From Eledone cirrhosa (taxonomy: Eukaryota), in NCBI GenBank assembly GCA_964016885.1, contig OZ024747.1, forward strand, positions 25,854,001 to 25,918,000: 64,000 nucleotides of DNA, given 5' to 3'. A program made the translations under genes and the position numbers. The notes under the pieces were generated by a model that saw only the letters and a list, made by a program, of their open reading frames with translations, was not told the DNA's origin and did no database searches. Below, in pieces: positions 22,566 to 63,079 of this stretch; the stretch's first letter is position 1, and the number at the start of each line of letters is the position of its first letter.

Positions 22566-22779
<214 letters not shown>

Positions 22780-22902: not shown

Positions 22903-22973
22903 TATTTTATTATGCGCATTTCAAAAACAAATATCATCATGCAATAACATTTGCGTTTTCGTCAGATAAAATA
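22903..22973 (-). ncRNA. Type I hammerhead ribozyme of the Naiad-type PLE
   Basis: Reverse complement of 27616-27686. Confidence 0.8.
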
Positions 22974-27615: not shown

Positions 27616-27686
27616 TATTTTATCTGACGAAAACGCAAATGTTATTGCATGATGATATTTGTTTTTGAAATGCGCATAATAAAATA
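27616..27686 (+). ncRNA. Type I hammerhead ribozyme, palindromic stem III, long stem II
   Basis: Stem I TATTTTAT/ATAAAATA; CTGACGA; stem II AAACGCAAATGTTATT-GCAT-GATGATATTTGTTTTT; GAAA; loopless palindrome ATGCGCAT; AUA triplet. Confidence 0.82.
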
Positions 27687-27716
27687 CATGGAACTCTTTT
27701 AACCATCTTTTGATCT

Positions 27717-27836
<120 letters not shown>

Positions 27837-36611: not shown

Positions 36612-36829
36612 TTATATATATATATATATATATCCCGTTCAATTTTTTACTATACAATACACGCTCCTACGGCTTCCATACCTTTGGAATATACTTTGAC
36701 TACCGGCTCAACCCCGATCTAATCCGCCGTGACCACTCTCTGAACCTTCCACACATCTTCCCACACTTGTTTTTTTCTTTCTTTGCATTACCTTTGATTG
36801 ATTTATTTACTGTACTTGTTTATTTCTGT

Positions 36830-39968: not shown

Positions 39969-40677
39969 ACTCCCCACCCTTATTCCTTTAGCCTTCGCCC
40001 CCCCCCCCCCCTCCCCCCACACATATCTCCCACTAACACCACTAACACAGCCCTCCTTTTCACCGCCCACCCCACAACTAACAATACTAACACCTCCACG
40101 CCACACCCGACCACCCTTCCCCAACTAACATACTAACATCCCTCCCTTCTTTTCCCCCCCTACTTATCACACGCACACACCCACCGGTACATATATACAC
40201 GCGCTCACACTAAACACACACCCTACTACCACCACTAACCCTCACCCCCACACATCCACCCCACCAACCCGCAACTAACATCACTAACACCCCCCAACCC
40301 TACGCACACGAACACACACACCCTCATACACCACCCACTCTACACACCCTACCACCACTGACACCCACTCACACCCGCATTCAACCCTTTCTCCACCTCC
40401 AGTATACTAACACCCACTAACACCCCCTTCACCACACACACACTCATCCAAACACGCACAGACACACCAGTACACTACACTCCCTCCATCGTCCCCCACA
40501 CCCTTCTCTTCCCGCTCCACCCACACCCTTTCTCACACACACACACATTCCACTAACACCTCTACTAATACACCCCCTCCTCACTCCAACTTTCACACCT
40601 ACCCATCCTCTCCCCTGTCCACCGCACCTCCGCACACACTGACACACCGACTTTTTTACCATTCTATCCTACTGCTG

Positions 40678-40740
<63 letters not shown>
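40678..40740. repeat. (TATC)n microsatellite at the 5' junction of the Tx1 cluster
   Basis: Perfect run. Confidence 0.97.
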
Positions 40741-41555
40741 GACGAAGAAACCGTCGCGCACGCATTCATACACTGCCCGGGCGTCACTGACCTGTGGGGA
40801 TATGTAGAACGACTATTGTCGCGGGTGGGACCAATCCAGTTGACCACCGAGTCCATTGTCATGATCAAACCGCCACCCTCCTTCAAAAACGAAGGAGAGG
40901 CGGTTTTCCTTTGTGTGATAGCTATGGCGAAAGAGGTTGTATGGTGGACAAGGTTGAAAGGGCTGAGGTCAGACACCTTTCTCTCCGGCCAACAACTGAT
41001 TCTTTTTTTCAAATACCACTTTGGAAGAAGAATCAGGATGGAGAGAGAGGTGCTGTACCGCAGCAAGTTTTATGAAAGGTGGGTGAAAGTGGCGAGAATG
41101 GCCCGAGTGAATGGGCCTTCTCTCTATATCAGCCTGTAGATTGAGGAAAAGGAGGAGGAGGAGAGGAAAGGAGTACAAGCTCTTCGTACTCCTGGAGATG
41201 AGGGTTGCACATTTTTTCGGGGGTATGTGTTACCCATATAAACTGTCTCCCTCTATTGGGGAAAATCGACTAACTTTTAAATTCCATCTGTGATAACATT
41301 TTACACGTTTTTATTGTATGTAAACTTCCCCCTTTGTATTTGTCCCCTTCTTTTGTGCCCCTGTGGCTAATAAAGAAATATAAAAAAAAAAATATATCTA
41401 TGTGTTACCCATATAAACTGTCTCCCTCTATTGGGGAAAATCGACTAACTTTTAAATTCCATCTGTGATAACATTTTACACGTTTTTATTGTATGTAAAC
41501 TTCCCCCTTTGTATTTGTCCCCTTCTTTTGTGCCCCTGTGGCTAATAAAGAAATA
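40741..41555 (+). mobile_element. Tx1-clade LINE, subfamily C, heavily 5'-truncated, with duplicated 3' UTR
   Basis: DEETVAHAFIHCPG..RMARVNGPSLYISL* (stop 41137-41139) is homologous to the ORF2 C-terminus of copies A and B; 41224-41381 is repeated at 41399-41556. Confidence 0.9.
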
Positions 41556-41586
<31 letters not shown>

Positions 41587-41784
41587 TTATCATAATCTAG
41601 TTTTGTTCAAATTTATTGCGGAAATTTTGTGAGTTCAAATTTTATTTTGATACTATTGTGTAGCTTGACCCCCCCCCCGTCTGAACTGTCAGGCGGTGGG
41701 TCAGCTCATCTTTACCCCTCCTAGAGGTGAAAAACCTGTTTAAAAAAATTTTGTGGCAAAAAAAATTTCAATCGTCTGACAGAA

Positions 41785-43682
41785 ATGTTAAACGAAGCGA
41801 ACGAAAATAGTGGTGGGGGGGGGGGGGGGACAGTGGTAAGAGTTGTAAGCTCGCACGCTTTAGTCCCCCCTTCCTTCCCAACTAACGTCATAGAGAAGGA
41901 AGGAAAAAATAAAATAAAAACAGACGAATCTGCGGAGAAAAATGACGAAAACACAAATCTGGACATGGATTCCAACAACGAAAAAAAAAAAATTTGAAAA
42001 ATTGCATGACAATACTAATACTACAAACAAAGACACAACAAACACAAAAATAACATTTGAAAATAACACCATAATAGAAAGCAAAGCAGACGACAGAGTC
42101 AACAAGATTTCATTTGCACAAAAAACAAAGAAATCTTTGACATATATACCTGAAAATATTTCAGATGTGGCACGAAGAATCACAGACGCCAAACAATACA
42201 TAAGTGAAGGAGAGAATGGTATTTTATCGGTAAAAATGCCTCAAGAACTCACCAAAGACATTGAAAGTCGAACGGTCGTGTTCCGCACCATCAACAACAC
42301 TTCAAAAAAACCTGAACAGCCAAGTCAGGCAGATATCAAAACAGTACTCACAGAAGTACTTAATGAAACCACTTTCATAAGAAAAGACAGACTGTATGGA
42401 AGCCTAGCAATCATTATGAAGAACGAATCGGCGGCAAAAAAAAAATGTGCTTTGTCACCGATTCGTTCGAAAAATTTTACCTTTTATCCATCTTATATGG
42501 GTAAAAGAACTCAACGCATATGGCTTGATGCAATGATGCCAGATGTGGACTACTGCTGGCTCATAGCTGGCTTCATCGATCCAGTGAATGACAACGTGAT
42601 TTCCATTGGGAAAACCACAGGCAATGCGTTCAGTGGAACAGGTATAGAGCTGGTAGTGCAAATGAAGCCTGAACGCATCGCCCAAATACCCGACAGAATC
42701 CTATTAGAGGGCCACGGGTATATAAACATTAGCGTGGAGGGGAGAAGGCCGTCCTGTCATATCTGTGCAGGAAGAGGGCACCTGAAGGCCGCTTGTCCCC
42801 AACTCAACAAAAAGAAAACCCTGCTACCAACACCAGCTCCACCACCACCACCACAACAGATAAACAAACAACAAAACTCAATCCCACCCAACCCGTCCCT
42901 CAGTAAAACTACACCACCACCACAACACAAACAGTCACAACACATTACCCCAAAACAAAATACAGGCCCACCCAACCCCTCACTCAATAAAACAACACAA
43001 CCACCGCAGACACAACACACAACACAGTCTAACATAGTAACATCCATCTCCCCCACAAAGAAAACCAACACGGAAACATTACCAGCAAACATACCTCTTC
43101 CCTCCAACACTGAAGATAACCCAACGAATTCGGAGGAAGAAACGGAGTCCTTCAGACAGATTAAAAGGAGAAAAAGAAAACATGTGCAAAACACACAAGG
43201 CCAAACAACCCCCACCCAAATCTCAACACAATCCAACAAAACAGAAAACACCCCTCCAGCAATAAACAAAACCAAACCTGCCCCTCCCCTCTTCGAAACA
43301 CTCACACCATCCGAAAAAAAGACATTACACTATACTTACATCAACAGAAACAATAATAAATTAAATGAACTCATAAACAATAATCCTTCGGTACAAACCG
43401 AAGGTGTAAACTTTGTTTCTTCAGAAAACTACCCACATTTAAAATTAATAAAGATCCCAATGAACCTCTACCAAAAACTAAAAAAGGATTTTAAGGAGGA
43501 CGTAGGACCACCCTCTGTCAAACCCATAAACCGCGTCCTACTAAAAAGCTTTCCCCCTCCCCTTCCCCTCCCCAACCCCACCACACACTGACGACCCCAC
43601 ACCACCACAAGACACCCCTTCACCCAACACCCCCGACCCCATGGAAGTCGTGCGACCCGAACCCCGGGAAGCGGAAAGGTAG
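41785..43682 (+). pseudogene. Tx1 ORF1 (CCHC knuckle), frameshifted
   Basis: ORF pieces 41785-41997 and 41942-43591; CHICAGRGHLKAAC; collinear with 54309-56189. Confidence 0.88.
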
Positions 43683-43715
43683 GTCTCTACACTCTCCTTT
43701 GGCTCTGCCGCCCAC

Positions 43716-46700
43716 ATGGATGTGTTAAGAGTAGGATGTTTGAATGCACGTGGCCTGGGCTCAACTTGGAAGCAAGCAAAGCTTCTAAATGACCTCAGGT
43801 CATGTGGTATAAATGTAATGGTTATCTGTGAGACTCGAATCAGCGTCGTGCGGCAGCTGGCCCCTACCTTCGATGACTTTGAGGTGTATGCATCTCTCTG
43901 TCAACCTGGAGGTGGGGGTGGGGTTGTCGTACTGCTGCAAAAACACCTGGGTCTTGCCGTACAGGTTGTGCATTCGGACCCGGAGGGTCGTTTGTTGGTG
44001 CTAGACGTTGGCAGTAGTGAAGGTGCGGCCTTGAGACTGGTCGCCGTCTACTCCCCTTTCGGAGCTGAACGGCCCGACTTCTTCCAGCGTTTGGAGACTT
44101 TTCTGGGAACGTCGCGTTCCCTGCTTCTAGCGGGGGATTGGAATGACATCCTAGATGCACGTTGGGACTATGCAGGAGCATGTCCTAATAGAGGGGGGTG
44201 TAACAGCCTCAAGGGGTTACTCGACCGTTTTAACTTGGTCGATAGATATCGACTAGATTTTCCAACTGTGCCTACCTGGACTTGGAGAAACCACAGTGGT
44301 CAATCTAGATCGTACTTAGATAGATTCTTAGTTAGAAGTAAGGATAGGGACATATTAAGCTGTCCAGAAATGCGCACGGTTGGCTACATGGATCACAAAT
44401 TAGTGACCTGCGTAGTCAATCTCGAGAAAACACATAAACAGGGTCCCGGTTACTGGAAACTTAATTTGTCTTTACCGGCAAAAGAGACTTACAGAAACCG
44501 GATTAGCAGTTAGTTAAGGAGAGGTTGACGGGTGGTGGGCATCTCTCAAAAGAGAGATTAGAACAGAATCAATAAGTTATAGCAAGATGTTAGCTGCCGA
44601 TAGGAATAGAAACGAGAAAGAATTAACAGGTAAATTAGAAGAGGCAATCAAGAGCGAAGATGTGGCCAGAGTGCTGGCATCGAGGACGGCCTTGAACCAG
44701 TTTTTCGATGCAAAGCACGAAGGCTGCGTCATTCGAAGTGAAATACGTGCTCTAGGTAATGAGGGGGCCAAAGCCATTGGCTGGGCCCGCGTGACAGAAG
44801 CTAAGAGTGGAAATCGATCCACCATCCGGTCGTTGCAAGACGAAGATGGACGGGTGATCCGGGAGCCTAAGCAGATGTGCGAGGCCTTTCAAAGGCACTT
44901 TGCCCGATTGTTCGGGGGAGGCGAGGGTCCGGGCGAGGGCGTGGATTTCGGTCCATACCTCGACGGCCTGCCGCGTCTCTCGAGCGAAGAGGCAGAGTCC
45001 TGCGAGGGACCAATCTCGGCTGATGAGATCGGAGATGCGCTGAGCCAATGCAGCAGACGCAAATCTCCAGGTCTCGATGGTATATCTTACGAACTTTATT
45101 TAGCAATGCCGGTCTTCTTCTCCGAACTCCTCGAAGCGGTCCACTGCAATTGGCAGCAGAACGGGAGAATTCCTTGTTCTGTAGCCAAGAGCGTAGTCAC
45201 GCTGGTGAGGAAGGACGAGAACAAGGGAGATAGTATAAATAATTTTCGGCCCATAACCCTGCTAAACACAGAGTTAAAGATTTTGGCCAAGTGTTAGCAA
45301 AGAGGTTGGCGCTTGTCGTGGGTGGCCTGGTGGGAGATGCGCAGACATGTGCTATCCCATCCAGGTCCATTCACGATAACCTCCACCTCATGCGATACAT
45401 CATAGAGAGGGTTGGCAACAAACCCGGCTTCGGTGGGGCCCTGATCAACTTGGATCAGTCTAAGGCCTTCGATAGGGTCGACCATGGTTACCTGGATGCG
45501 GTGCTAGCGGCGGCTGGGTTCGGTCCTGTTTTCAGAGGCTGGATCACTGCCTTACATAGCAACCACATCTGTTCTAGGATCAAGGTGAACGGCTACCTTT
45601 CGAAGCCGTTCGAAATCACACGATCCATTCGACAGGGGTGCCCTCTCTCCTCCCTTCTGTACGTATTGACTCTCGAGCCTTTACTGAGGAAGTTGGAGTT
45701 GTTGAAGGGTATCCCCCTGGAACCAGGATTGAGCAAAGCGGTGTCGGCCTACGCCGATGACGTAACAGTAATGGTATCGACCGACTCGGAGATCGAGGCG
45801 ATCGGTACCTTACTGGAGGATTACGAAAGGTTGTCAGGAGCGAAACTGAACCGGGAAAAATCCATCGGGCTGCAACTCGGAACGTGGAGAGGCAGACCGA
45901 TGCCTCCCGACGGTGTCGTCGGACACTGGACGGAGGGCCCGGTAAAGTTGCTTGGGGTCTGGTTTGGACCGGACCTCCAGGTGGAAAAGAACTGGAACGA
46001 GGTTACGAACAAGGTGTTTGCACTAACCCAGAAATGGGCCAAGTGTAAGCTGTCCCTAAAAGGCCGGGCGGAGGTGGCGAACATTTACATAGCGTCCGTC
46101 ACTTACTACCGCCTGACTGTCGTGCCTTGCCCTAAGGAAACACTCACCACCATGGAACGCATGCTCTTCCAATTTCTTTGGAAGAAGCGCCCTCCTATGG
46201 TGAGAAGATCCATCTGCTGCCAACAACCTTCGAAAGGAGGGCTGGGGATGCCGTGGTTGATGATGCGTAGGCACGCATTAAGGCTGCTACGGCACATACA
46301 GGTATTCCTCACTGGTCAACCGGTGTGGGCTCCGTTCGTGAAACGAACCTTTCTGAGACTCGTCTCGCTCACCGAGCTGCAGTCCTGGGTCAAGAAAAGA
46401 TCCGGAAAACTGGGAGACTGGCACACTGAGTGTGCTCAGGCGCTCAGGGCTCTCTGGCAAGCGGGCCAGGCCGCCGGTGGAGAATCCACCTCATCATTCT
46501 ATAGAGGGCTGGTGGCTAACAGGGGCGATGACACCCTTGGAGAGTCGCTGGACATGGAAGAGGACGAACTGGCCAGTCTGTTCGGTAGGACTTTCGGCCC
46601 AGGACCAATGGACACCTTCCAGAAGTCACTGGCCTGGCAGTGCTACCAAGGGGCTCTACCCGTTCGAGAGAGGCTCTACAGACACGGGCGCCCGGGCAGG

Positions 46701-47135
46701 GATCCCTCAAAAAAGATTTTCCCTAGATGCGTGCGTCACGAAGAAACCGTTGCGCACGCATTGGTGCAATGTCCGGGCGTGGCTGATCTGTGGGGCTACG
46801 CCGAACGACTGCTGTCGCGGGTGGCGCCGATTCAATTGACCGCCGAGTCCGTGATGACAATCAAACCGCCTCCCCTCTTCACAAAGGAAGCAAAGGCGGT
46901 TTTTCTGTGCGTAATAGCCATGTTGAAAGAGGTTGTTTGGTGGACACGATTGAAAGGTCTGAGGTCAGGCAACTTCCTCTCTGGCCATAGTCTGGTCTAC
47001 TTCTTCCGATATCACTTCGGAAGAAGGATAAGAATGGAGAGAGAGGTGCTTGGCCACAGGCAGTTTTATGAAAGGTGGGTGATAGTGGCGAGAATGGCTC
47101 GTGTAAATGGGCCTTCTCTGTATACCATCCTGTAG
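43716..47135 (+). pseudogene. Tx1 ORF2 (APE-RT-CCHC), broken by small deletions
   Basis: Pieces 43716-44513, 44587-45297 and 45291-47135; versus copy A2: 1-bp deletion ~44509, 19-bp deletion ~44534, 1-bp deletion ~45291. Confidence 0.92.
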
Positions 47136-47580
47136 GTAAAGAAGTAAAGGAGAGGAGAGCACCTTCTCCATGTGCTCCCCGGGCAAAGGATTGCACACTT
47201 TTTCGGGGGTGTGTGCAACCCCCATCACGTCCCCTCCCTTTTGAGGTTATTTTCGATTATTTTCATTTTATACCCTTTTTACTCGATTGTATGTAAACTC
47301 CCCCCTTTGTATTTGTCCCTTCTTTTTATGCCTTTATGGTAAATAAAGAAATATATCTATCTATCTATCTATCTATCTTGATAGAGTAAGACACGCTTCG
47401 CATCGGCTCCGCTATTCCATCGGGATTTACCCTTACTATTGTAAGTACCGGATAAATTTTTTAGTGCAACACATTTGGAACACTAACCCCTGTTATTTAG
47501 GGAAACATTTTTGCATTTACCCCCTTTTTAGGGGGTAAAATAAATATCTATTTTTGCCGAAAAATTTCTTTCTTGGCAGC

Positions 47581-49420
47581 ATGGCGGAAAAGATGGCAGA
47601 CATGTCTGCCATTAGCTCTGCCACGCCCCCCAAGTCTGAAGAACAAAAAATAATTACAACAAAATTAGACATTGAAACAAACAAACAAAATGAAAAAACA
47701 AATGTTAAGGAAAATGAGCAAACAGAAAACAAACAAACAGAAAATAATACAAATAACGACAGGGCAACTTTCGCCCAGAAAACAAAACAATCCATTACAT
47801 ACACACCAATTGACCTAACTGCCGCCAGAGAAAAACTGGCCGAAGCAAAGAAACACATTGTTTTGGGGGAGAACGGAATATTTTCCATTAACTCCCCCCC
47901 AGAATTCAAGAAAGCCAGAGCAGAAAACACAGTTCTATACAGAACTATACTGAACCAGACAAGAAAGCCAGCACAGCCCAGCCAAATGGAAATAGAGTTA
48001 GTCCTAAAAGACTATATGAAGAATATTCTCTTCATACGAAAGGACCGACTCTATGGCAGCATTTCGGTCCTAACAAGAGACAAAGAAACGGCGGAGAAGC
48101 TTTCCCTAAGCCCACTCTCGTCGACAAGATATAGCTTCTATCCCTCCTACATGGGTAGAAGAACACAGAGAGTAAAAGTAAAAACAATGCTGCCCACAAT
48201 GGACTTCTGGTGGGCTATTGCTGGCTTCATTGATATGGGCGAAGACACTATGCTGTCAATGGGGAAGGCAACTGGAGATGCGTTCCTGGGAATGGGCCTC
48301 GACATACTAGTCCAAATGAGGCCCGAAAGAATAGCACAAATCCCGGATCGCATCTGGCTGGATGACCTTACCCCAATAGACATAATTGTAGAGGGGAGAA
48401 GACCAGCATGCTATTTATGCATGGAAAGGGGACACGTTAAGGCTAACTGCCCGAAACGTATCCCCCAAAAAGGACTATTGCCCACACCCACCACAAACAG
48501 TACACCAGCACCACCCACCTCCAAAAATACACTAATACCACACACAGCAAACAAAATACAGACACCACCAACCACAAACACAACACAAACATCACCACCA
48601 CCAGCACCAAACACAAGCACGACACAAAAATCACCACCACCAACCACAACACAAACATCACCACCACCAGCACCAACCACAAGCACGACACAAACATTAC
48701 CACCACCACCACCACCACAAAACCCATTCCAAACAAATAATAAAAAAAACAGTAACAAATCTACCCCTCCCGCAAAAAAAAAACAACCACACAACACGTC
48801 CCTCCCACCTAGCGCTGAAGAGTTTCCCCCAACTTCTGAAGAAGAAGGAGGAGAAGCCTTCAGACAAGTTAAAAGAAAAAAAAGAAAACACACACCCAGC
48901 ACACCACAAATAACCCACACACAAACACCAACTCCAATCAAAAACACCCCACCCTCAACAAACAAAAATAAATCTGCGCCTCCCCTCTCCGAAACATTGA
49001 CAGCATCACAAAAAAAGACGTTGCAATACACATATATAAATAAAGAAAACAAAAAACTGGTTAAATTAATAAACAATAACCCTATGGTGCAGACCGAAGG
49101 GCCAAACTTTATCTCAACAGAGAACTTCACCCATTTAAAAATGATAAAGGTCCCTCTGGACCTTTATCGTTCCTTAAAAGAACAATTTAGACGGGACGTG
49201 AGCCCCCCCCTGTTTAAAACCGTTGAATCGCGTCCTCTTGAAAGATTTCCCCATAACCGCCCCTCTCCCTGACACAACTCCAAATACCCCAACCCCACCA
49301 CACACGTGTACCCCCACACCACCACAAAACATCCCTCCACCCAACACACCTGATGCCATGGAAATTACGCAACCCGGAGAGGTAAGTGCTTTTCTTTCTT
49401 CACTTTCAACACCAAAATAG
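47581..49420 (+). CDS. Tx1-B ORF1 (CCHC knuckle, Pro/Thr-rich linker); frameshift near 49210
   Basis: Long ORF to 49272 with CYLCMERGHVKANC; the homologous C-terminus continues in frame 49223-49420. Confidence 0.82.
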
Positions 49421-52400
49421 ATCAATTGAGAGTTGGCTGTTTGAACGCGCGTAGCCTGGGCTCAGCTTGGAAGCAAGCAAAGCTTCTAAGTGACCTCAGG
49501 TCACAAAGTATAGATGTGATGGTTGTTTGCGAGAGTCGGATCAGCAGCGTGAGACAGCTGGCGCCCGCCTTCGATGACTTTGAGATGCACGCATCTCTCT
49601 GTCAACCCGGAGGCGGGGGGGGGGGGGGGGAGTTGCCGTACTGCTGGATAAACGTCTGACTCTCGACGTACAGATTGTTCACTCGGACCCGGGGGGTCGA
49701 TTACTGGTGCTGGACGTCGGAGGCGGTGAAGGCGGGGCTTTCAGACTGGTCGGTCTTTATGCTCCCTTCGGGGCGGAAAGAGCCGACTTCTTCCAGCGTC
49801 TGGAGACTTTTCTAGGAACGTCGCGTTCCCTGCTTTTAGTGGGGGACTGGAATGGAATCCTAGATGCGCGTTGGGACTATGCAGGGGCATGTCCCGATAG
49901 AGGGGGGTGTAGCAGCCTCAAGGGGTTACTCGATCGATTCGACCTGGTCGATAGATTTCGACTAGATTGTCCAACTGCGCCAACCTGGACCTGGGCAAAC
50001 CGCAGTGGACAATCTAGATCGTACCTAGATAGGTTTTTGGTTAGGAGTAAGGATAGGGACGTATTTAGTTGTCCAGAACTGATCATGGTTGGCTATTCAG
50101 ATCACAAATTAGTGACCTGCGTGGTCAACCTTCATAGAACGCATAGACAGGGTCCCGGTTACTGGAAGATGAACTTGTCCTTACCGACAAAGAAAGATTA
50201 CAGAAACCGGATTAGTAGCTTAGTTAAGATGCGGTTGACGGGAGCGATCGTCAACAGTAGGTGGTGGATATCTCTAAAGAGAGAGATTAGAGTAAGTTCG
50301 ATAGGTTACAGTAAGGAACTAGCGGCGAATAGAAATAGGAGGGAAAGGGAGTTAACAGATAAACTAGAAGAGGCGATTAGGAGCGGAGACGTAGCCAGAG
50401 TGTTAGCGACGAGAACGGCATTGAGCCAGTTCTTTGACGCGAAGCACGAAGGCTGCGTTGTCCGAAGTAAAATACGTGCTTTAGGAAACGAGGGGACCAA
50501 AGCTGTTAGCTGGGCCCGCGTGACAGAAGCCAAGAGTGGGATTAAATCCACCATTCGGTCTTTGCGAGACCAGGATGGACGGGTGATCCTTGAACCTGAG
50601 CGAATGTGCGAGACCTTTCAAAGGCACTTTGCTCGACTGTTCGGAGGTGGCGGGGGGCCGGACGGGGATGTGGACTTCGGTCCATACCTCGACGGTCTAC
50701 CGCGTCTTTCGAGCGGCGAAGCGGAGTGCTGCGAAAGGCCAATCACAGCCACTGAAATCGGGGAAGCGCTCAGCCAATGCAGCAGACGCAAATCCCCGGG
50801 TCTCGATGGTCTACCATACGAACTTTATTTAGCTATGCCGGTCTTGTTCTCCGAACTCCTCGAGGCTGTCTATTGCAACTGGCAACAGAACGGGAGAATT
50901 CCCTGTTCTGTGACCAAGGGCGTGGTCACGCTAGTGAGGAAGGACGAGAGCAAGGGGGACGACTTAAGTAACTTTAGGCCCATAACTCTGCTGAATGCAG
51001 AGTTACAGATTTTGGCCAAGGTGTTGGCGAAGAGGTTGGCGCTTGTGGTGGGTGGTTTGGTGGGAGACGCGCAGACATGCGCTATCCCGTCCAGGTCCAT
51101 TCACGACAACCTCCACCTCATGCGATACATCATAGAGAGGGTTGGCTACGAACCCGGCTTTGGTGGGGCCCTGATCAACTTGGATCAATCTAAGGCGTTC
51201 GATAGGGTCGACCATGGTTACCTGGATGCGGTGCTAGCGGCGGCGGGCTTCGGACCCGTTTTCAGGGGCTGGATTTCTGCCATGCACAGTGGCAACATCT
51301 ACTCTAGGATTAAAGTAAACGGCTACCTCTCGGAGCCGTTTCAAATCACCCGATCCATCAGACAGGGGTGCCCCCTCTCCTCCCTTCTGTACGTATTGAC
51401 TCTCGAGCCACTGCTGCGGAAGTTGGAGTTGCTGCGGGGCATACCCCTGGAACCGGGATTGCACAAAGCGGTCTCGGCCTATGCCGACGACGTAACAGTA
51501 ATGGTGGCGGACGCCTCGGAAATCGGGGCGATCGCCACCCTACTGGAGGAATACGAAAGGCTGACGGGGGCTAAGCTGAACCAGGACAAGTCAGTCGGTT
51601 TGCAACTCGGAACGTGGAGGGGCAAACCGATGCCGTTAGACGGTGTCGTCGGGCGGTGGACGGAGGGCCCGGTGAAGCTGCTCGGGGTCTGGTTCGGACC
51701 GGACCTCCAGGTGGAGAAGAATTGGGGCGAGGTGACGAGCAGGGTGTTTGCGCCGACCCAGAAGTGGGCCAAGTGCAAACTATCACTGAAAGGTCGGGCG
51801 GAGGTGACGAACGCTTACATAGCGTCCGTCATCTACTACCGCCTGACCGTCGTGCCTTGCCCCAAGGAAAAACTCACCATCATGGAACGCATGCTCTTCC
51901 AGTTCCTCTGGAAGAAGCGGCCTCCCATGGTGAGGAGATCCATCTGCTGCCAGCACCCTTCGAAAGGAGGGCTGGGTATGCCGTGGCTGTTGATGCGTAG
52001 GCACGCATTGAGGCTACGGCATCTACAGGTATTTCTCAACGGTCAGCCGGTGTGGGCCCCGTTTGTGAGGCGAGCCTTCCCACAGCTCGTCTCGCTCACC
52101 GAACTGCAATCCTGGGTGAAGCAAAGACCGAGAAAACTGGGCAACTGGCACACCGAGTGTGCCCAGGCGCTCACGGCTATCTGGCAAGCGGACCCGACTG
52201 TCAGTGGAGAATCCACCTCGACATTCTATAGAGGGTTGGTGGCTAGCCGGGGCGACGACACCCTTGGAGAGTCGCTAGGCATGGAGGAGGACGAACTGGC
52301 CAGCCTGTTCGGTAGAACTTTCGGCCCGGGACCCATGGACAACTTCCAGAGGTCCTTAGCCTGGCAGTGTTACCGGGGGGCTCTGCCCGTTCGAGAAAAG

Positions 52401-52862
52401 CTCTACAGACACGGGCGCCCGGGCAGGGATCCCGCGAAAAAGATCTGTCCCAGATGCGTGCGCGACGAGGAAACCGTTGCGCATGCACTGGTACACTGCC
52501 CGGGCGTTGCCGATCTGTGGGGCTACGTCGAACGACTGCTGTCGCGTGTGGCGCCGATTCGATTAACCGCCGAGTCTGTGGTGAACATCAAGCCGCCACC
52601 TCCCTTCAGAAATGAAGCAGAGGCGGTCTTTCTGTGCGTAATAGCCATGATGAAAGAGGTTGTGTGGTGGACGCGCCTGAAAGGTCTGAGGTCGGGTGAC
52701 TTTCTCTCCGGCCATCACCTGGTTTACTTCTTCCGATACCACTTCGGAAGAAGAATCAGGATGGAGAGAGAAGTGCTTGGTCCCAGACAGTTTTATGAAA
52801 GGTGGGTGAAAGAAGCGAGAATGGCCCGTGTAAATGGGCCTTCTCTCTACATTGTTCTGTAG
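49417..52862 (+). CDS. Tx1-B ORF2 (APE endonuclease, RT, CCHC); frameshift in poly-G ~49615-49630; start codon reads ATA
   Basis: LRVGCLNARSLG, GDWNG, SYLDRFL, SDH, LDQSKAFDRVDH, RQGCPLS, YADD, CPRCVRDEETVAHALVHC; 1051-aa open stretch 49707-52862. Confidence 0.88.
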
Positions 52863-53130
52863 GTGAAGAAGTGAAGAGGAAAGGGGGAGCGCCTCCTCTC
52901 TGGGCTTCCCCCGCGAAAAGAGTTGCACACTTTTCGGGGGTATGTGCAATCCCCAACACGCCCCCTCCCTTTTGAGGACTTTTTATTGTTATATTATTAT
53001 TGTTATTCCTTTTTTCTTTACTCGATTTATGTAAACTCCCCCACTGTGTAAATGTCCCCTTCTTTTGTGCCCTCGTGGCAAATAAATAGAAATTTATCTA
53101 TCTGTCTCTCTGTCTGTCTGTCTGTCTCTC

Positions 53131-53137
<7 letters not shown>

Positions 53138-53177
<40 letters not shown>

Positions 53178-53307
53178 GTGTGTATGTGTGTGTGTATGTG
53201 TGTGTGTGTGTGTCTGTGTGTGTGTGTGTGTGTGTGTCTGTGTGTGTGTGTGTGTGTGTCTCTGTGTGTGTGTGTGTGTGTGTGTGTGCATGTGTATGTG
53301 TGTGTGT

Positions 53308-53368
<61 letters not shown>

Positions 53369-53389
53369 TGTGTGTGTGTGTGTGTGTGA
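53138..53389. repeat. (TG)n microsatellite
   Basis: Seen directly. Confidence 0.95.
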
Positions 53390-53479
53390 GTATCTTATAT
53401 ACACACCTTTGACTTGGATTCTTGCATGCTGTCAACTCTAATAACGCATTGAGCTTAACGGACGATTTTCTTGGCGATA

Positions 53480-53650
53480 TTTGTTTTGATTTTTTTATGT
53501 TCTAAGTTCTAATTCAGCCGAGGTCAAATTAACTTTTCAACCGTCCGGGGTCGATAGAATAAAAAATAAAAAAGCACTTAAGTGGTTGAATCGGTTTAAT
53601 CGCTTATCAACTCTACTCAAATTGCTAGTCTTGTTGCTAAATTAGAAGCT
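53480..53650 (+). mobile_element. Degenerate SINE copy
   Basis: TTCTAATTCAGCCGAGGTC..CTTTTCAACCGTCCGGGGTCGATAGAATAAA resembles the SINE core. Confidence 0.5.
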
Positions 53651-54041
53651 AATATATTAATAGCTTTAATATTGTTGTTATTTCTATATCCAAATAGCTG
53701 ATCATTAATTAGATAGGGTTGATAGGGCAAACGTAAGCCTTGTTTGCTTGTAATCAGCACCCGAAATATAGCTAAGAATAGGATCAATCCTACGGCAACA
53801 AAATATGTGTTGACCACTGTAATGTAATCTATATTTGTATGTACACTCTCGCGCCCACTCTCCCACTCTCTCTCATTCACTTTCTTCCACACACACACAC
53901 ACGCGCACTCTCTCTCTCTCTCTCTATATATATATACACGTATTTATATACCTTTGACTCGGATTCCTACATGCTGTCGACTCTAATAACGTATTGAACT
54001 TAACGCACTTTACCAACAATAATAGATTATTCCACTCTAAT

Positions 54042-54042
<1 letters not shown>

Positions 54043-54074
<32 letters not shown>
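54043..54074. repeat. (TATC)n at the 5' junction of Tx1-A2
   Basis: Perfect run. Confidence 0.95.
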
Positions 54075-54308
54075 AGACAATCTAGCTGTCGTCTGTTCTA
54101 CAGTGTGGATGTCATTCACTTCGCACAGAAGTTTTGTTCAAATTTATTGAGGAAATTTTGTGAGTTCAAACTTTATTTTGATACAATTGTGTAGCTTGAC
54201 CCTCCGTCTGAACTGTCAGGCGGTGGGTCAGCTCATCTTTACCCCTCCTAGAGGTGAAAAACCTGTTTTAAAAAATTTTGTGTAAAAAATTTCAATCGTC
54301 TAACAGAA

Positions 54309-56189
54309 ATGTTAAACGCAGCGAACGAAAATAGTGGTGGGGGGACAGCGGTAAGAGTTGTAAGCTCGCACGCTTTAGTCCTCCCTTCCTTCCCAACTAA
54401 CGTCATAGAGAAGGAAGGAAAAATTAAAATAAAAACGGACGAATCTGCGGAGGAAAAAAAATTAAATGACGAAAACAACGAAAAAAAAAAATTTGAAAAA
54501 TTGCATGACAATACTAATAACACAAACAAAGACACAACAAACAAAAAAATAACAGTTGAAAATAACATAATATCAGAAAACAAAGCAGACGACAAGATTT
54601 CTTTTGCACAGAAAACAAAGAAATCTTTGACTTATATAGCGGAAAACATTTCAGATGTGGTACGAAGGATCACGGACGCAAAACAATACATAAGTGAAGG
54701 TGAGAATGGTATTTTATTGGTAAAAATGCCTCAAGAATTCACGAAAGACATTGAAAGCCGAACGGTCAAGTTTCGGACCATCAACAACAGTACAAAAAAA
54801 CCTGAACAGCCTTCTCAAGCAGATATCAAAACAGTACTCGCAGAAGTACTGAATGAAACAACTTTCATAAGAAAAGACAGACTGTATGGAAGCCTAGCAA
54901 TTATCATGAAGAACGAATCGGCGGCAAAAAAATGTGCTTTGTCACCGATTCGTTCGAAAAATTTCACCTTTTATCCATCTTATATGGGGAAAAAAACTCA
55001 ACGCATATGGCTGGATGCAATGATGCCAGATGTGGACTACTGCTGGCTCATAGCTGGCTTCATCGATCCAGTGAATGACAACGTGATTTCCATTGGGAAA
55101 ACCACAGGCAATGCGTTCAGTGGAACAGGTATAGAGCTGGTAGTACAAATGAAGCCTGAACGCATCGCCCAAATACCCGACAGAATCCTATTAGAGGACC
55201 ACGGGTATATAAACATTAGCGTGGAGGGGAGAAGGCCGTCCTGCCATATCTGTGCAGGCAGAGGGCACCTGAAGGCCGCTTGTCCCCAACTCAACAAAAA
55301 GAAAACCCTGCTACCAACACCAGCTCCACCACCACCACCACAACAGATAAACAAACAACAAAACTCAGTCCCACCCAACCCGTCCCTCAGTAACACCACA
55401 ACACCACCACAACACAAACAGTCACAACACATTACCCCAAAACAAAATACAGGCCCACCCAACCTCTCACTCAATAAAACAACACAACCACCGCAGACAC
55501 AACACACAACACAGTCTAACATAGTGACATCCATCTCCCCCACAAAGAAAACCAACACGGAAACATTACCAGCAAACATACCTCTTCCCTCCAACACTGA
55601 AGATAACCCAACGAATTCGGAGGAAGAAACGGAGTCCTTCAGACAGATTAAAAGGAAAAAAAGAAAACATGTGCAAAACACACAAGGACAAACAACCCCC
55701 ACCCAAATCGCAACACAATCTAACAAAACAGAAAACACCCCTCCAGCAACAAACAAAACCAAACCTGCCCCTCCCCTCTTCGAAACACTCACACCATCGG
55801 AAAAAAAGACATTACACTATACTTACATCAACAGAAACAATAATAAATTAAATGAACTCATATACAATAATCCTTCGGTACAAACCGAAGGTGTAAACTT
55901 TGTTTCATCAGAAAACCACCCACATTTAAAACTAATAAAAATCCCAATGAACCTCTACCAAAAACTAAAAAAGGATTTTAAGGAGGACGTAGGACCACCC
56001 TCTGTCAAACCCATAAACCGCGTCCTACTAAAAAGCTTTCCCCCTCCCCTTCCCCTCCCCAACACAACTCCAAACACCCCAACCCCACCACACACCGACG
56101 ACCCCACACCACCACAAGACACCCCTTCACCCAACACCCCCGACCCCATGGAAGTCGTGCAACCCGAACCCCGGGAAGCGGAAAGGTAG
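54309..56189 (+). CDS. Tx1 ORF1 protein (nucleic-acid-binding, single CX2CX4HX4C knuckle)
   Basis: Uninterrupted 626-aa ORF; CHICAGRGHLKAAC; basic KRKKRK motif. Confidence 0.9.
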   Translation: MLNAANENSGGGTAVRVVSSHALVLPSFPTNVIEKEGKIKIKTDESAEEKKLNDENNEKKKFEKLHDNTNNTNKDTTNKKITVENNIISENKADDKISFAQKTKKSLTYIAENISDVVRRITDAKQYISEGENGILLVKMPQEFTKDIESRTVKFRTINNSTKKPEQPSQADIKTVLAEVLNETTFIRKDRLYGSLAIIMKNESAAKKCALSPIRSKNFTFYPSYMGKKTQRIWLDAMMPDVDYCWLIAGFIDPVNDNVISIGKTTGNAFSGTGIELVVQMKPERIAQIPDRILLEDHGYINISVEGRRPSCHICAGRGHLKAACPQLNKKKTLLPTPAPPPPPQQINKQQNSVPPNPSLSNTTTPPQHKQSQHITPKQNTGPPNLSLNKTTQPPQTQHTTQSNIVTSISPTKKTNTETLPANIPLPSNTEDNPTNSEEETESFRQIKRKKRKHVQNTQGQTTPTQIATQSNKTENTPPATNKTKPAPPLFETLTPSEKKTLHYTYINRNNNKLNELIYNNPSVQTEGVNFVSSENHPHLKLIKIPMNLYQKLKKDFKEDVGPPSVKPINRVLLKSFPPPLPLPNTTPNTPTPPHTDDPTPPQDTPSPNTPDPMEVVQPEPREAER

Positions 56190-56222
56190 GTCTCTACACT
56201 CTCCTTTGGCTCTGCCGCCCAC

Positions 56223-59200
56223 ATGGATGTGTTAAGAGTAGGATGTTTGAATGCACGTGGCCTGGGCTCAACTTGGAAGCAAGCAAAGCTTCTAAATGAC
56301 CTCAGGTCATGTAGTATAAATGTAATGGTTATCTGTGAGACTCGAATCAGCGTCATGCGGCAGCTGGCCCCCACCTTCGATGACTTTGAGGTGCATGCAT
56401 CTCTCTGTCAACCTGGAGGTGGGGGTGGGGTTGTCGTGCTGCTGCAAAAACACCTGGGTCTTGCCGTACAGGTTGTGCACTCGGACCCGGAGGGTCGTTT
56501 GTTGGTGCTAGACGTTGGCAGTAGTGAAAGTGCGGCCTTGAGACTGGTCGCCGTCTACTCCCCTTTCGGAGCTGAACGGCCCGACTTCTTCCAGCGTTTG
56601 GAGACTTTTCTGGGAACGTCGCGTTCCCTGCTTCTAGCGGGGGATTGGAATGACATCCTAGATGCACGTTGGGACTATGCAGGAGCATGTCCTAATAGAG
56701 GGGGGTGTAACAGCCTCAAGGGGTTACTCGACCGTTTTAACTTGGTCGATAGATATCGACTAGATTTTCCAACTGTGCCTACCTGGACTTGGAGAAACCA
56801 CAGTGGTCAATCTAGATCGTACTTAGATAGATTCTTAGTTAGAAGTAAGGATAGGGACATATTAAGCTGTCCAGAAATGCGCACGGTTGGCTACACGGAT
56901 CACAAATTAGTGACCTGCGTGGTCAATCTCGAGAAAACACATAGACAGGGTCCCGGTTACTGGAAACTTAATTTGTCTTTACCGGCAAAAGAGACTTACA
57001 GAAACCGGATTAGCAGATTAGTTAAGGAGAGGTTGACGGGTGCAATCGTCAACAACCGATGGTGGGCATCTCTCAAAAGAGAGATTAGAACAGAATCAAT
57101 AAGTTATAGCAAGATGTTAGCTGCCAATAGGAATAGAAACGAGAAAGAATTAACAGGTAAATTAGAAGAGGCAATCAAGAGCGAAGATGTGGCCAGAGTG
57201 CTGGCATCGAGGACGGCCTTGAACCAGTTTTTCGATGCAAAGCATGAAGGCTGCGTCATTCGAAGTAAAATACGTGCTCTAGGTAATGAGGGGGCCAAAG
57301 CCGTTGGATGGGCCCGCGTGACAGAAGCTAAAAGTGGAAATCGATCCACCATCCGGTCGTTGCAAGACGAAGATGGACGAGTGATCCGGGAGCCTAAGCA
57401 GATGTGCGAGGCCTTTCAAAAGCACTTTGCCCGATTGTTCGGGGGAGGCGAGGGTCCGGGCCGGGGCGTGGATTTCGGTCCATACCTCGACGGCCTGCCG
57501 CGTCTCTCGAACAAAGAGGCAGAGTCCTGCGAGGGACCAATCTCGGCTGATGAGATCGGAGATGCGCTGAGCCAATGCAGCAGACGCAAATCTCCAGGTC
57601 TCGATGGTATACCTTACGAACTTTATTTAGCAATGCCGGTCTTCTTCTCCGAACTCCTCGAAGCGGTCTACTGCAATTGGCAGCAGAACGGGAGAATTCC
57701 TTGTTCTGTAGCCAAGGGCGTAGTCACGCTGGTGAGGAAGGACGAGAACAAGGGGGATAGTATAAATAATTTTCGGCCCATAACCCTGCTAAACACAGAG
57801 TTAAAGATTTTGGCCAAGGTGTTAGCAAAGAGGTTGGCGCTTGTCGTGGGTGGCCTGGTGGGAGATGCGCAGACATGTGCTATCCCATCCAGGTCCATTC
57901 ACGATAACCTCCACCTCATGCGATACATCATAGAGAGGGTTGGCAACAAACCCGGCTTCGGTGGGGCCCTGATCAACTTGGATCAGTCTAAGGCCTTCGA
58001 TAGGGTCGACCATGGTTACCTGGATGCGGTGCTAGCGGCGGCTGGGTTCGGTCCTGTTTTCAGAGGCTGGATCACTGCCCTACATAGCAACCACATCTGT
58101 TCTAGGATCAAGGTGAACGGCTACCTTTCGAAGCCGTTCGAAATCACACGATCCATTCGACAGGGGTGCCCTCTCTCCTCCCTTCTGTACGTATTGACTC
58201 TCGAGCCTTTACTGAGGAAGTTGGAGTTGTTGCAGGGTATCCCCCTGGAACCAGGATTGAGCAAAGCGGTGTCGGCCTACGCCGATGACGTAACAGTAAT
58301 GGTATCAACCGACTCGGAGATCGAGGCGATCGGTACCTTACTGGAGGAGTACGAAAGGTTGTCAGGAGCGAAACTGAACCGGGAAAAATCCATCGGGCTG
58401 CAACTCGGAACGTGGAGAGGCAAACCGATGCCTCCTGACGGTGTCGTCGGACACTGGACGGAGGGCCCGGTAAAGTTGCTTGGGGTCTGGTTTGGACCGG
58501 ACCTCCAGGTGGAAAAGAACTGGAACGAGGTTACGAACAAGGTGTTTGCACTAACCCAGAAATGGGCCAAGTGTAAGCTGTCCCTAAAAGGCCGGGCGGA
58601 GGTGGCGAACATTTACATAGCGTCCGTCACTTACTACCGCCTGACTGTCGTGCCTTGCCCTAAGGAAACACTCACCACCATGGAACGCATGCTCTTCCAA
58701 TTTCTTTGGAAGAAGCGTCCTCCTATGGTGAGAAGATCCATCTGCTGCCAACAACCTTCGAAAGGAGGGCTGGGGATGCCGTGGTTGATGATGCGTAGGC
58801 ACGCATTAAGGCTACGGCACCTACAGGTATTCCTCACTGGTCAACCGGTGTGGGCTCCGTTCGTGAAACGAGCCTTTCCGAGACTCGTCTCACTCACCGA
58901 GCTACAGTCCTGGGTCAAGCAAAGATCCGGAAAACTGGGAGACTGGCACACTGAGTGTGCTCAGGCGCTCAGGGCTCTCTGGCAAGCGGGCCGGGCCATC
59001 GGTGGAGAATCCACCTCATCATTCTATAGAGGGCTGGTGGCTAGCAGGGGCGATGACACCCTTGGAGAGTCGCTGGACATGGAAGAAGACGAACTGGCCA
59101 GCCTGTTCGGTAGGACTTTCGGCCCAGGACCAATGGACAACTTCCAGAAGTCACTGGCCTGGCAGTGCTACCGAGGGGCTCTACCCGTTCGAGAGAGGCT

Positions 59201-59660
59201 CTACAGACACGGGCGCCCGGGCAGGGATCCCTCAAAAAAGATTTGCCCTAGATGCGTGCGTCACGAAGAAACCGTGGCGCACGCATTGGTGCAATGTCCG
59301 GGCGTGGCTGATCTGTGGGGCTACGCCGAACAACTGCTGTCGCGGGTGGCGCCGATTAAATTGACCGCCGAGTCCGTGATGACAATCAAACCGCCTCCCC
59401 TCTTCACAAAGGAAGCAAAGGCGGTTTTTCTGTGCGTAATAGCCATGTTGAAAGAGGTTGTTTGGTGGACACGATTGAAAGGTCTGAGGTCAGGCAACTT
59501 CCTCTCTGGCCATAGTCTGGTCTACTTCTTCCGATATCACTTCGGAAGAAGGATAAGAATGGAGAGAGAGGTGCTTGGCCACAGGCAGTTTTATGAAAGG
59601 TGGGTGATAGTGGCGAGAATGGCTCGTGTAAATGGGCCTTCTCTGTATACCATCCTGTAG
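56223..59660 (+). CDS. Tx1 ORF2 protein (APE endonuclease - reverse transcriptase - CCHC)
   Basis: Uninterrupted 1145-aa ORF; LNARGL, ICETR, GDWND, YLDRFL, TDH; KSPGLDG, FRPITLLN, LDQSKAFDRV, RQGCPLS, YADD, GGLG, CPRC..HALVQC. Confidence 0.95.
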   Translation: MDVLRVGCLNARGLGSTWKQAKLLNDLRSCSINVMVICETRISVMRQLAPTFDDFEVHASLCQPGGGGGVVVLLQKHLGLAVQVVHSDPEGRLLVLDVGSSESAALRLVAVYSPFGAERPDFFQRLETFLGTSRSLLLAGDWNDILDARWDYAGACPNRGGCNSLKGLLDRFNLVDRYRLDFPTVPTWTWRNHSGQSRSYLDRFLVRSKDRDILSCPEMRTVGYTDHKLVTCVVNLEKTHRQGPGYWKLNLSLPAKETYRNRISRLVKERLTGAIVNNRWWASLKREIRTESISYSKMLAANRNRNEKELTGKLEEAIKSEDVARVLASRTALNQFFDAKHEGCVIRSKIRALGNEGAKAVGWARVTEAKSGNRSTIRSLQDEDGRVIREPKQMCEAFQKHFARLFGGGEGPGRGVDFGPYLDGLPRLSNKEAESCEGPISADEIGDALSQCSRRKSPGLDGIPYELYLAMPVFFSELLEAVYCNWQQNGRIPCSVAKGVVTLVRKDENKGDSINNFRPITLLNTELKILAKVLAKRLALVVGGLVGDAQTCAIPSRSIHDNLHLMRYIIERVGNKPGFGGALINLDQSKAFDRVDHGYLDAVLAAAGFGPVFRGWITALHSNHICSRIKVNGYLSKPFEITRSIRQGCPLSSLLYVLTLEPLLRKLELLQGIPLEPGLSKAVSAYADDVTVMVSTDSEIEAIGTLLEEYERLSGAKLNREKSIGLQLGTWRGKPMPPDGVVGHWTEGPVKLLGVWFGPDLQVEKNWNEVTNKVFALTQKWAKCKLSLKGRAEVANIYIASVTYYRLTVVPCPKETLTTMERMLFQFLWKKRPPMVRRSICCQQPSKGGLGMPWLMMRRHALRLRHLQVFLTGQPVWAPFVKRAFPRLVSLTELQSWVKQRSGKLGDWHTECAQALRALWQAGRAIGGESTSSFYRGLVASRGDDTLGESLDMEEDELASLFGRTFGPGPMDNFQKSLAWQCYRGALPVRERLYRHGRPGRDPSKKICPRCVRHEETVAHALVQCPGVADLWGYAEQLLSRVAPIKLTAESVMTIKPPPLFTKEAKAVFLCVIAMLKEVVWWTRLKGLRSGNFLSGHSLVYFFRYHFGRRIRMEREVLGHRQFYERWVIVARMARVNGPSLYTIL

Positions 59661-60029
59661 GTAAAGAAGTAAAGGAGAGGGGAACACCTTCTCCATGTGC
59701 TCCCCGGGCAAAGGATTGCACACTTTTTCGGGGGTGTGTGCAACCCCCATCACGTCCCCTCCCTTTTGAGGTTATTTTCGATTATTTTCATGTTACACCC
59801 TTTTTACTCGATTATATGTAAACTCCCCCTTTGTATTTGTCCCTTCTTTTTATGCCTTTATGGTAAATAAAGAAATCTATCTATCTATCAAGAAATCTAT
59901 CTATCTGTATTACTCTTTTACTCCGACTGAGGCCATGCTGGGGCACCGCCCTTATATATATTTGTTTTTCCAGAAGATTCTGTAATAGGGTGAAAGTAGA
60001 AATATTTTGCTTAAACTTTAATCGGCACT

Positions 60030-60205
60030 AATAATTGTTTCTACTTTTGGCACAAGGCCAGCAATTATCCCAGTGTATTACTGGTACTTCATTTTATCGA
60101 CCCCGTAATGATGAAAGGCAAAGTTAACCTCGGCGGATTTGAATTCAGACCATAAAGAGCCGTAACTTTTTGCTGCAAAGCATGGCGTCAGACCCTCTTT
60201 TCTCT
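60030..60205 (-). mobile_element. tRNA-derived SINE
   Basis: Reverse complement of SINE core: TTTATCGACCCCGTAATGATGAAAGGCAAAGTTAACCTCGGCGG. Confidence 0.8.
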
Positions 60206-60224: not shown

Positions 60225-60385
60225 TACCATCAGTCACGGCATGTCCAGCTATCCGTATAGAGGGTGTTGGCAGCAGATGCATCACCCTACCCATGGGACC
60301 TATTTCTTCCACAAAACGTTGAAGAGCAGGCTCTCCAATTTGGTGATGTGCAGACCGGGGCAAAGTCAGACGATCTTTCAGTGAA
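60225..60385 (-). pseudogene. Decayed Tx1-related ORF2 fragment
   Basis: Translates to KLESLLFNVLWKK..ICCQHPLYG.LDMP, homologous to MERMLFQFLWKK..ICCQQPSKGGLGMP. Confidence 0.7.
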
Positions 60386-62699: not shown

Positions 62700-63035
62700 T
62701 TCTTTCATCCCGAGAATACCATGGGGGAAGAGTCCCCAAACAAGCCTTCCAGCGGGTCCAACTGATCCGGCTAGATTCCCAAGCGAGACCAGCCAAGATA
62801 TTGCGGAAAGAGCTGTCTCACAAACGGCGACCACACCTGTTCACTTGGAGATGCCGTAACCTTAGCGCATGTTTGTGCACCATCAGCCACGGAATGTCCA
62901 GCTATCCGCATAGAGGGTGTTGGCAGAAGATGGATCACCCTACCCGTGGAACCTATCCTTTCCACAAAACATTGAAGAGCAGGCTCTCCAATTTGATGAG
63001 GTCCTGACCGGGGCAGGGCAAGACGAACTTTCAGT
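62700..63035 (-). pseudogene. Second decayed Tx1-related ORF2 fragment
   Basis: CQHPL..LDIPWLMVHKHALRLRHL..VWSPFVRQLFPQ; closely similar to 60225-60385. Confidence 0.72.
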
Positions 63036-63079
63036 GATAGAAACATTAAACATGGGATACAAGAGAAATATATAGAAAC

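What the first reader, a model, noticed from the sequence alone, without database searches (positions are those of the whole stretch)
40678..59906. Cluster of Tx1-clade retrotransposons that appear to target (TATC)n/(GATA)n microsatellites
Seen: four same-strand insertions from three subfamilies (C truncated, A1, B, A2). Each 5' junction follows (TATC)n, and each 3' end reads AATAAA(TA)GAAA followed within a few bases by TATC repeats. (TATC)n also precedes the 5'-truncated copy C and copy A2, neither of which has an element directly upstream, so the repeat is not simply a 3' tail. Known: Tx1-clade elements with APE endonucleases include sequence-specific families (Kibi, Koshi, Keno, Mutsu, Dewa) aimed at microsatellites and RNA genes. 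I do not recall a GATA-repeat-specific family, but cannot check this. Inference: a GATA-repeat-specific lineage that keeps re-inserting into the repeat left by earlier insertions, building head-to-tail arrays.
Basis: partly seen in the sequence, partly recalled or inferred. Interest (0 to 1): 0.82.

Follow-up and report, generated by a model that had tools for sequence, protein, structure and literature searches.

The report
Octopod LINE inserting into GATA repeats
Five copies of one jumping-gene family sit in or beside (TATC)n/(GATA)n repeats here, and more do so in other sequencing runs, so this family, probably from an octopus, likely aims at that repeat: a new target for a known kind of site-preferring retrotransposon.

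Summary
All six TATC runs of 3+ units in the 64 kb lie at their junctions; none lies in the 44,640 bases outside. Two copies (C, A2) have TATC upstream with no LINE before them. RAD reads from another sample show two more 5'-truncated copies preceded by TATC, and a contig from another run carries TATC at the 3' end. Three contig loose ends lacked TATC, so strictness is unknown and no genome-wide rate could be measured. Closest named relatives are from the octopod Argonauta hians (58-63%). A sister lineage (about 40% identical) builds long head-to-tail arrays with non-microsatellite spacers, so arrays alone do not prove repeat targeting. Microsatellite-specific Tx1 families are known (TC, TTC, TTCC/TTTC); ten literature searches found none for GATA, but Repbase could not be searched. 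Tx1 membership was not tested against named families. Verdict: likely a new target variant of a known kind.

The parts
40678..40740 (+). (CTAT)15 run upstream of C; no LINE of this family before it (the C-rich end of a Penelope-like element lies upstream)
40741..41378 (+). Copy C, 5'-truncated (ORF2 aa 1015-1145 + 3' UTR ending AATAAAGAAA), third subfamily
   Evidence: 74% nt to A2 and B
41379..41398 (+). TATA + A-tract + TATATC spacer between C and C'; the only poly(A)-like tail seen
41399..41553 (+). C': 155-bp second copy of C's 3' end, 100% identical; a very short insertion or a template jump
41554..41585 (+). TA + (TATC)7 spacer between C' and A1
41587..47351 (+). Copy A1, about 50 nt short at the 5' end; both ORFs frameshifted (ORF2 in three frames); 96% to A2
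47352..47378 (+). TA + (TATC)6 spacer between A1 and B
47379..53092 (+). Copy B, apparently full length; ORF1 47581-49272 (563 aa, CCHC knuckle); ORF2 with one frameshift at the G16 run 49615-49630; ends AATAAATAGAAA
53093..53388 (+). TT(TATC)2 then TGTC/TC/TA/TG: likely the rest of the compound microsatellite that received C, C', A1 and B
   Evidence: the pre-insertion state is inferred
54042..54073 (+). (TCTA)8 run upstream of A2; no LINE of this family directly before it
54077..59875 (+). Copy A2, full length, both ORFs open
   Evidence: a depth-2604 contig of run X5 aligns from 54085
54309..56189 (+). A2 ORF1, 626 aa from the first Met; CX2CX4HX4C knuckle, then a long P/T/Q/N-rich region
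   Evidence: no Pfam hit; Atlas leads to zf-CCHC and ZCCHC3-type RNA-binding clusters at 0.89-0.92
56223..59660 (+). A2 ORF2, 1145 aa: APE endonuclease (N, E, Y, D-x-N, D, D-H motifs present), RT (YADD), C-terminal zinc-binding region
59876..59906 (+). TCTATCTATCTATC + AAGAAA + TCTATCTATCT: TATC run with the element's last 6 nt repeated

Best explanation
These are five insertions of an L1/Tx1-type LINE family, probably of an octopod, whose subfamilies A, B and C sit in (TATC)n runs in one orientation and likely choose pre-existing (TATC)n/(GATA)n repeats as their target. Shown: element anatomy, TATC on both sides of the founder sites, the same junction in other runs. Inferred: the APE domain nicks the (GATA)n strand, and the free 3' end (ending about GAT/GATA) primes reverse transcription on the RNA end GAAA(UA)(A)n with 1-3 nt of pairing. 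Second-strand synthesis then leaves repeat units on both sides, so the target survives and later copies can land beside earlier ones, giving the C-C'-A1-B array. The preference is probably strong but not absolute.
For: (1) 6 of 6 TATC runs of 3+ units in the window are at junctions; 0 lie in 44,640 bases outside. (2) Two founder sites, C (15 units) and A2 (8 units), have the repeat upstream with no family 3' end before it, which a tail cannot explain. (3) C ends in an A-tract before any TATC, so its RNA likely did not carry a TATC tail. (4) RAD reads of run X11 (other sample and study, same species label) show two joints from TATC sequence into the element body: 59906->58616 (56 reads; 37 letters between are ATCT repeats + GGT, with 32 more repeat-like letters before) and 59889->58571 (86 reads; 20 letters equal to AAGAAA + TATC units). 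Neither is at a site where reads begin or end. (5) An X4 contig of depth 66.5 runs 59391-59889 through AATAAAGAAA and 14 nt of TATC. (6) Endonuclease motifs are intact in A2. (7) Tx1-clade families with microsatellite targets are known (PMC4494074), and target retention is a documented route to tandem elements (10.1101/158386).
Against: Three 5'-side loose ends in X4 contigs (54473, 57694, 58693; one contig each) show non-TATC letters. Two sit exactly at an EcoRI and an SphI site and may be library products; the one at 54473 has no such excuse. Only 15 of 81 joints and 24 of 1289 loose ends were displayed, and the tool skipped 54000-54084 as repeat, so no rate can be given. Each X11 joint has one read start. 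The second X11 joint looks like insertion behind another element's 3' end, which also fits self-targeting. The sister lineage makes arrays without any microsatellite. Two old minus-strand ORF2 fragments in the window (60228-60362, 62804-63075) have no GATA run beside them, though they are internal fragments. No biochemistry was done.
Confidence: 0.68

Rival explanations
1. The preference is real but comes from primer-template pairing: read-through RNAs ending in (UAUC)n pair with (GATA)n at loosely chosen nicks, so only those sites yield insertions and the endonuclease is not sequence-specific.
For: Most 3' ends run into TATC with no poly(A); the junction register varies (TA, TT, TC after GAAA); A2's repeated AAGAAA + TATC looks like slippage during priming. 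PMC1950540 (passages) shows that APE-type specificity can rest on DNA structure rather than base reading.
Against: C has an A-tract directly after GAAATAT, yet it sits behind 15 TATC units. Tx1L, R1Bm and TRAS1 specificity is attributed to the endonuclease (PMC4494074 and PMC8869645, passages).
Confidence: 0.15
2. TATC is a tail made by the element, and new copies insert right behind an existing copy's 3' end (self-targeting, as the sister lineage appears to do); the runs upstream of C and A2 are left from lost copies or are coincidence.
For: The sister clade (SH-aLRT 100, quick tree) forms arrays whose units, some 5'-truncated, follow AATAAA plus an 11-18 nt spacer. 0 of 54 junction observations (36 distinct, overlapping loci) have TATC. 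In 3 of 16 3' ends read, the same spacer leads into unique DNA. One X11 joint has AAGAAA before the TATC.
Against: It needs two separate coincidences at C and A2, where no family 3' end precedes 15 and 8 units, in DNA with 0 such runs in 44,640 other bases. B's 'tail' is only 2 units and passes into TGTC repeats.
Confidence: 0.12
3. The cluster is a local duplication or an assembly artefact at a low-complexity repeat.
For: C' is 100% identical to C's end, and A1 and A2 are 96% identical.
Against: There are three subfamilies (74-82% identical), each with different 5' ends and flanks. A, B and C-type 3' ends and TATC junctions appear in other runs.
Confidence: 0.05

Closest known systems
Kibi (TC)n and Koshi (TTC)n of teleosts; crocodilian Tx1 families preferring (TTCC)n/(TTTC)n (PMC4494074, passages and section 15; PMC3812793, passages)
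   Same: APE-RT non-LTR elements of the L1/Tx1 kind that insert into a microsatellite
   Different: The repeat here is TATC/GATA; the host is probably an octopod; relationship to those families was not tested
Waldo (ACAY), Mino (AC), Dong (TAA), Togen (TG) (PMC3812793, PMC4640811, passages)
   Same: Microsatellite-targeted LINEs
   Different: Other repeat units and, as recalled, other clades (R1, R4, NeSL-related); this ORF2 is closest to L1 ORF2p among solved structures (E 4e-128 against 2e-44 for R2)
R1 and Utopia tandem arrays from repeated insertion at a retained target (10.1101/158386, PMC4640811, passages)
   Same: Head-to-tail copies separated by target sequence
   Different: There the target is an rRNA or U2 gene; here it is a simple repeat, and the array mixes three subfamilies
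Unnamed Argonauta hians proteins GAB1601854.1, GAB1599396.1, GAB1606090.1 and the array-forming sister lineage in G001
   Same: 58-63% (Argonauta) and about 40% (G001) ORF2 identity; one well-supported clade with G001 copies
   Different: Argonauta flanks could not be read; G001 arrays have no TATC

Membership tests
L1 group non-LTR retrotransposons (L1/Tx1) | Two ORFs; ORF2 = APE endonuclease, RT, C-terminal zinc-binding region; RT closest to L1 | tested here: met
   Pfam PF03372, PF00078 and PF13966 (the last just under its cut-off); best PDB match is human L1 ORF2p
L1 group non-LTR retrotransposons (L1/Tx1) | TPRT marks: 5' truncation, polyadenylation signal or A-tail at the 3' end | tested here: met
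   C and C' are truncated; AATAAA at all five ends; A-tract after C
L1 group non-LTR retrotransposons (L1/Tx1) | Target-site duplication | tested here: inconclusive
   Both flanks are repeat units, so a duplication cannot be delimited
Tx1 clade | RT phylogeny groups with Tx1L, Keno, Kibi, Koshi | not testable with these tools
   No named Tx1 reference sequence was returned by any search; the tree holds unnamed relatives only
Tx1 clade | ORF1 with RNA-binding domains and a CCHC knuckle (feature recalled, not from a call) | tested here: inconclusive
   CX2CX4HX4C in A2 and B; Atlas leads at 0.89-0.92; no Pfam hit
Target-specific Tx1 family (criterion of PMC4494074) | One sequence type in more than 20% of flanks genome-wide | tested here: inconclusive
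   5 of 5 in a selected window; 2 further TATC joints and 3 non-TATC loose ends in a truncated display; no genome held
Target-specific Tx1 family | Endonuclease nicks the target in vitro | not testable with these tools
   Catalytic motifs are present; no assay
Kibi / Koshi | Target is (TC)n or (TTC)n | tested here: not met
   Junction repeat is TATC; the window's (TC)n runs (e.g. 33432, 34644) carry no copy

The most novel reading that the evidence does not exclude
A cephalopod LINE clade in which one branch re-inserts directly behind its own 3' end at arbitrary host sites, building arrays of a dozen or more full-length copies, while its octopod sister branch has an endonuclease re-tuned to (GATA)n. 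That would be a natural pair showing how APE-type sequence specificity arises from self-targeting, with a visibly different hairpin loop (SGQSRS in A2, B and P0273; longer in the array-forming side).
Probability: 0.3. Interest if true: 0.62.

Novelty: new variant of a known kind. Interest (0 to 1): 0.42.

Why it matters
It would add GATA/TATC to the short list of microsatellite targets of APE-type LINEs, and in a mollusc lineage. A2 has two open ORFs, so how an APE endonuclease reads a simple repeat can be tested directly; PMC3812793 calls that mechanism not well understood. Sequence-preferring LINEs are also of interest as insertion tools, and a LINE that splits GATA runs would affect microsatellite markers and repeat landscapes in octopods. 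It is not a new kind of system.

Tried and rejected
No host genome was held, so the genome-wide flank table could not be made. Viral contigs: no relative. Metagenome contigs: 80 of 178 relatives returned, 22-44% identical; 0 of 85 distant loci hold a TATC/GATA run of 3+ units. They are mostly short contigs of distant elements and do not bear on this family. Rfam at gathering score: nothing in the window or in 12 sister-lineage loci, so there is no sign of an RNA-gene target. Earlier scan findings: none. The idea that A2's TATC run is the tail of a minus-strand SINE rests on a recalled resemblance. Only one copy of that end is in the window, and the other SINE-like copies end differently, so it is not used as evidence. 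An inverted TAGA next to three 5' junctions was noted and not pursued. The careful tree did not finish; the quick one is cited. Kibi/Koshi membership was rejected on target.
Full report
What is there. Between 40,678 and 59,906 lie five same-strand 3' ends of one LINE family. C (40741-41378) is 5'-truncated. A1 (about 41587-47351) is frameshifted and about 50 nt short at its 5' end. B (47379-53092) has one frameshift at a G16 run. A2 (about 54077-59875) has an open ORF1 (626 aa, CCHC knuckle) and an open ORF2 (1145 aa). ORF2 carries APE endonuclease, RT and a zinc-binding C-terminus, with catalytic motifs present. Its closest solved structure is human L1 ORF2p (E 4e-128; R2 2e-44). A1/A2 are 96% identical, A/B 81-82% over the ORF2 part, and C about 74% to both. 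The closest named proteins are from the octopod Argonauta hians at 58-63%, so the host is probably an octopod (inference). L1-Tx1 is a recently active group in Octopus vulgaris (13 families, 421 recent insertions; PMC13282606, passages and its one supplementary text file); the passages and that file say nothing on targets.

The repeat association. All 6 TATC/GATA-phase runs of at least 12 nt in the window are at these junctions and on the element's strand. There are none in the 44,640 bases outside. The 5' junctions carry 15 units (C), TATATCTAT (C'), 7 (A1, with about 13 other nt between), 6 (B) and 8 (A2). The 3' junctions carry an A-tract then TATATCTAT (C), 7 units (C'), 6 (A1), 2 then TGTC (B), and 3 + AAGAAA + 3 (A2). 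Spacers inside the C-C'-A1-B array could be tails, so the informative sites are C and A2. Both have the repeat upstream with no family 3' end before it. C's A-tract suggests an RNA that ended without TATC. The window was selected for this feature, so these counts are not a genome-wide rate.

Evidence from outside the window. No genome was held. I laid 4 of 13 listed runs on A2 at 90% likeness. In RAD reads from another sample and study with the same species label (X11), two joints lead from TATC sequence into the element body. One enters at 58616 (56 reads; about 16 repeat units upstream by my sum of the 37 letters between and the 32-letter side). The other enters at 58571 (86 reads; 20 letters equal to AAGAAA + TATC units). 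The lengths fit reads starting at the cut site at 58691. Each has a single read start, as RAD reads do, and read numbers like those of other single variants in that table (54-112). I read them as two more truncated copies behind TATC; the second may lie behind another element's 3' end. An X4 contig of depth 66.5 runs through the 3' end and 14 nt of TATC. B-type and C-type 3' UTRs appear as loose ends in X5 and X4. Against: three X4 loose ends on the 5' side (54473, 57694, 58693) have non-TATC letters; two coincide with EcoRI and SphI sites, one does not. Only 15 of 81 joints and 24 of 1289 loose ends were shown, the tool skipped 54000-54084 as repeat, and human-like reads are dropped without notice. 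So neither a rate nor full-length 5' junctions could be read.

The sister lineage. The genome scan returned 45 loci. Of these, 40 come from small contigs of one assembly labelled as a bacterium (G001); they hold about 40%-identical relatives in head-to-tail arrays with a 6.4-6.8 kb period. I infer that this is animal host DNA binned with the bacterium. In a quick tree of 46 RT regions they fall in the clade sister to A2, B and P0001 (SH-aLRT 100 for the joint clade; the careful search did not finish). None of 54 junction observations in those 40 overlapping loci (36 distinct) has TATC. Units follow AATAAA plus an 11-18 nt spacer that differs between arrays and is kept before 5'-truncated units. 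Of 18 regions fetched, 16 showed a 3' end. In 3 of these (L126, L127, L129) the same spacer leads into DNA that by eye is not the element. The spacer therefore looks like a duplicated host site. So relatives build arrays with no microsatellite, by re-insertion at a retained site or behind their own end, possibly followed by unequal exchange (two identical truncated units, L138 and L139). This lowers the weight of the window's array as proof of repeat targeting, but it does not explain C and A2.

Mechanism. Most likely (0.68) the family prefers pre-existing (TATC)n. Inferred steps: a nick on the (GATA)n strand, priming on the RNA end with 1-3 nt of pairing, and repeat left on both sides so that later copies can land beside earlier ones. 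The exact nick cannot be fixed because the register after GAAA varies (TA, TT, TC). The hairpin-loop region, which PMC1950540 (passages) links to target selection in L1, reads SGQSRS in A2, B and the 66%-identical P0273 and is longer in the array-forming side; this is a lead only. Rivals: pairing of a (UAUC)n RNA end with a loose endonuclease (0.15); self-made tail plus self-targeting (0.12); duplication or artefact (0.05).

Comparison with what is known. Passages of PMC4494074 (also section 15) and PMC3812793 list Tx1 targets (TC)n, (TTC)n, (TTCC)n/(TTTC)n, U2, transposons and others. They also list ACAY, AC and TAA for other LINEs. PMC4640811 adds (TG)n, and PMC10088271 cites a telomere-specific Tx1. 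GATA or TATC was searched for within PMC4494074, PMC3812793, PMC4640811, PMC8869645, PMC10294476 and PMC13282606 and does not appear as a target there. Ten full-text searches found no GATA-specific LINE. I also saw passages of PMC9341512, PMC9004415 and 10.1101/158386. Not seen: Kojima and Fujiwara 2004 (cited second-hand), figure 3 and the supplements of PMC4494074 (which list further repeat units and could bear on novelty), Repbase Reports and Dfam. It works like Kibi/Koshi but is not one (different target). L1-group membership is met; Tx1-clade membership is plausible but was not tested against named families.

Verdict. A real feature and likely a new target variant of a known kind, interest 0.42. 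The open points are how strict the preference is, whether the endonuclease causes it, and whether Repbase already holds it.

Noticed in passing
G001 contigs C3-C19; loci L081-L118, L121, L123, L126-L143: An assembly labelled as a bacterium carries about 17 small contigs made of head-to-tail arrays (up to 13 3' ends on one 91-kb contig) of L1/Tx1-type LINEs about 40% identical to A2, with several subfamilies, array-specific 11-18 nt spacers and some truncated units; likely animal host DNA.
   Followed up: partly
window 37258-39990 (+): Penelope-like element (RT plus GIY-YIG-type motif, frameshifted) with a long C-rich end directly upstream of the (CTAT)15 run.
   Followed up: no
window 11319-14706 (+): Broken APE-RT LINE of another kind (RTE-like by recalled motifs) with C-terminal C2H2-like fingers.
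   Followed up: no
window 60228-60362 and 62804-63075 (-): Two old internal ORF2 fragments of a related subfamily (68-72% nt), similar to each other, without GATA runs beside them.
   Followed up: partly
window 4466-4635, 10362-10514, 30760-31373, 60030-60198: A roughly 170-bp SINE-like repeat, with three copies head-to-tail at 30.7-31.4 kb.
   Followed up: no
window 59907-59950 (-): The sequence downstream of A2 reads on the minus strand like the 3' end of a cephalopod SINE running into AGAT repeats (recalled resemblance); A2 may have split that SINE's tail.
   Followed up: partly
window 40738-40742, 47378-47387, 54072-54078: A short inverted TAGA follows the TATC run at the 5' junctions of C, B and A2; chance or fold-back, unexplained.
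   Followed up: no
window 22753-23299, 27300-27731, 35913-36633: A 450-550 bp AT-rich repeat in both orientations (81-83% identical).
   Followed up: no
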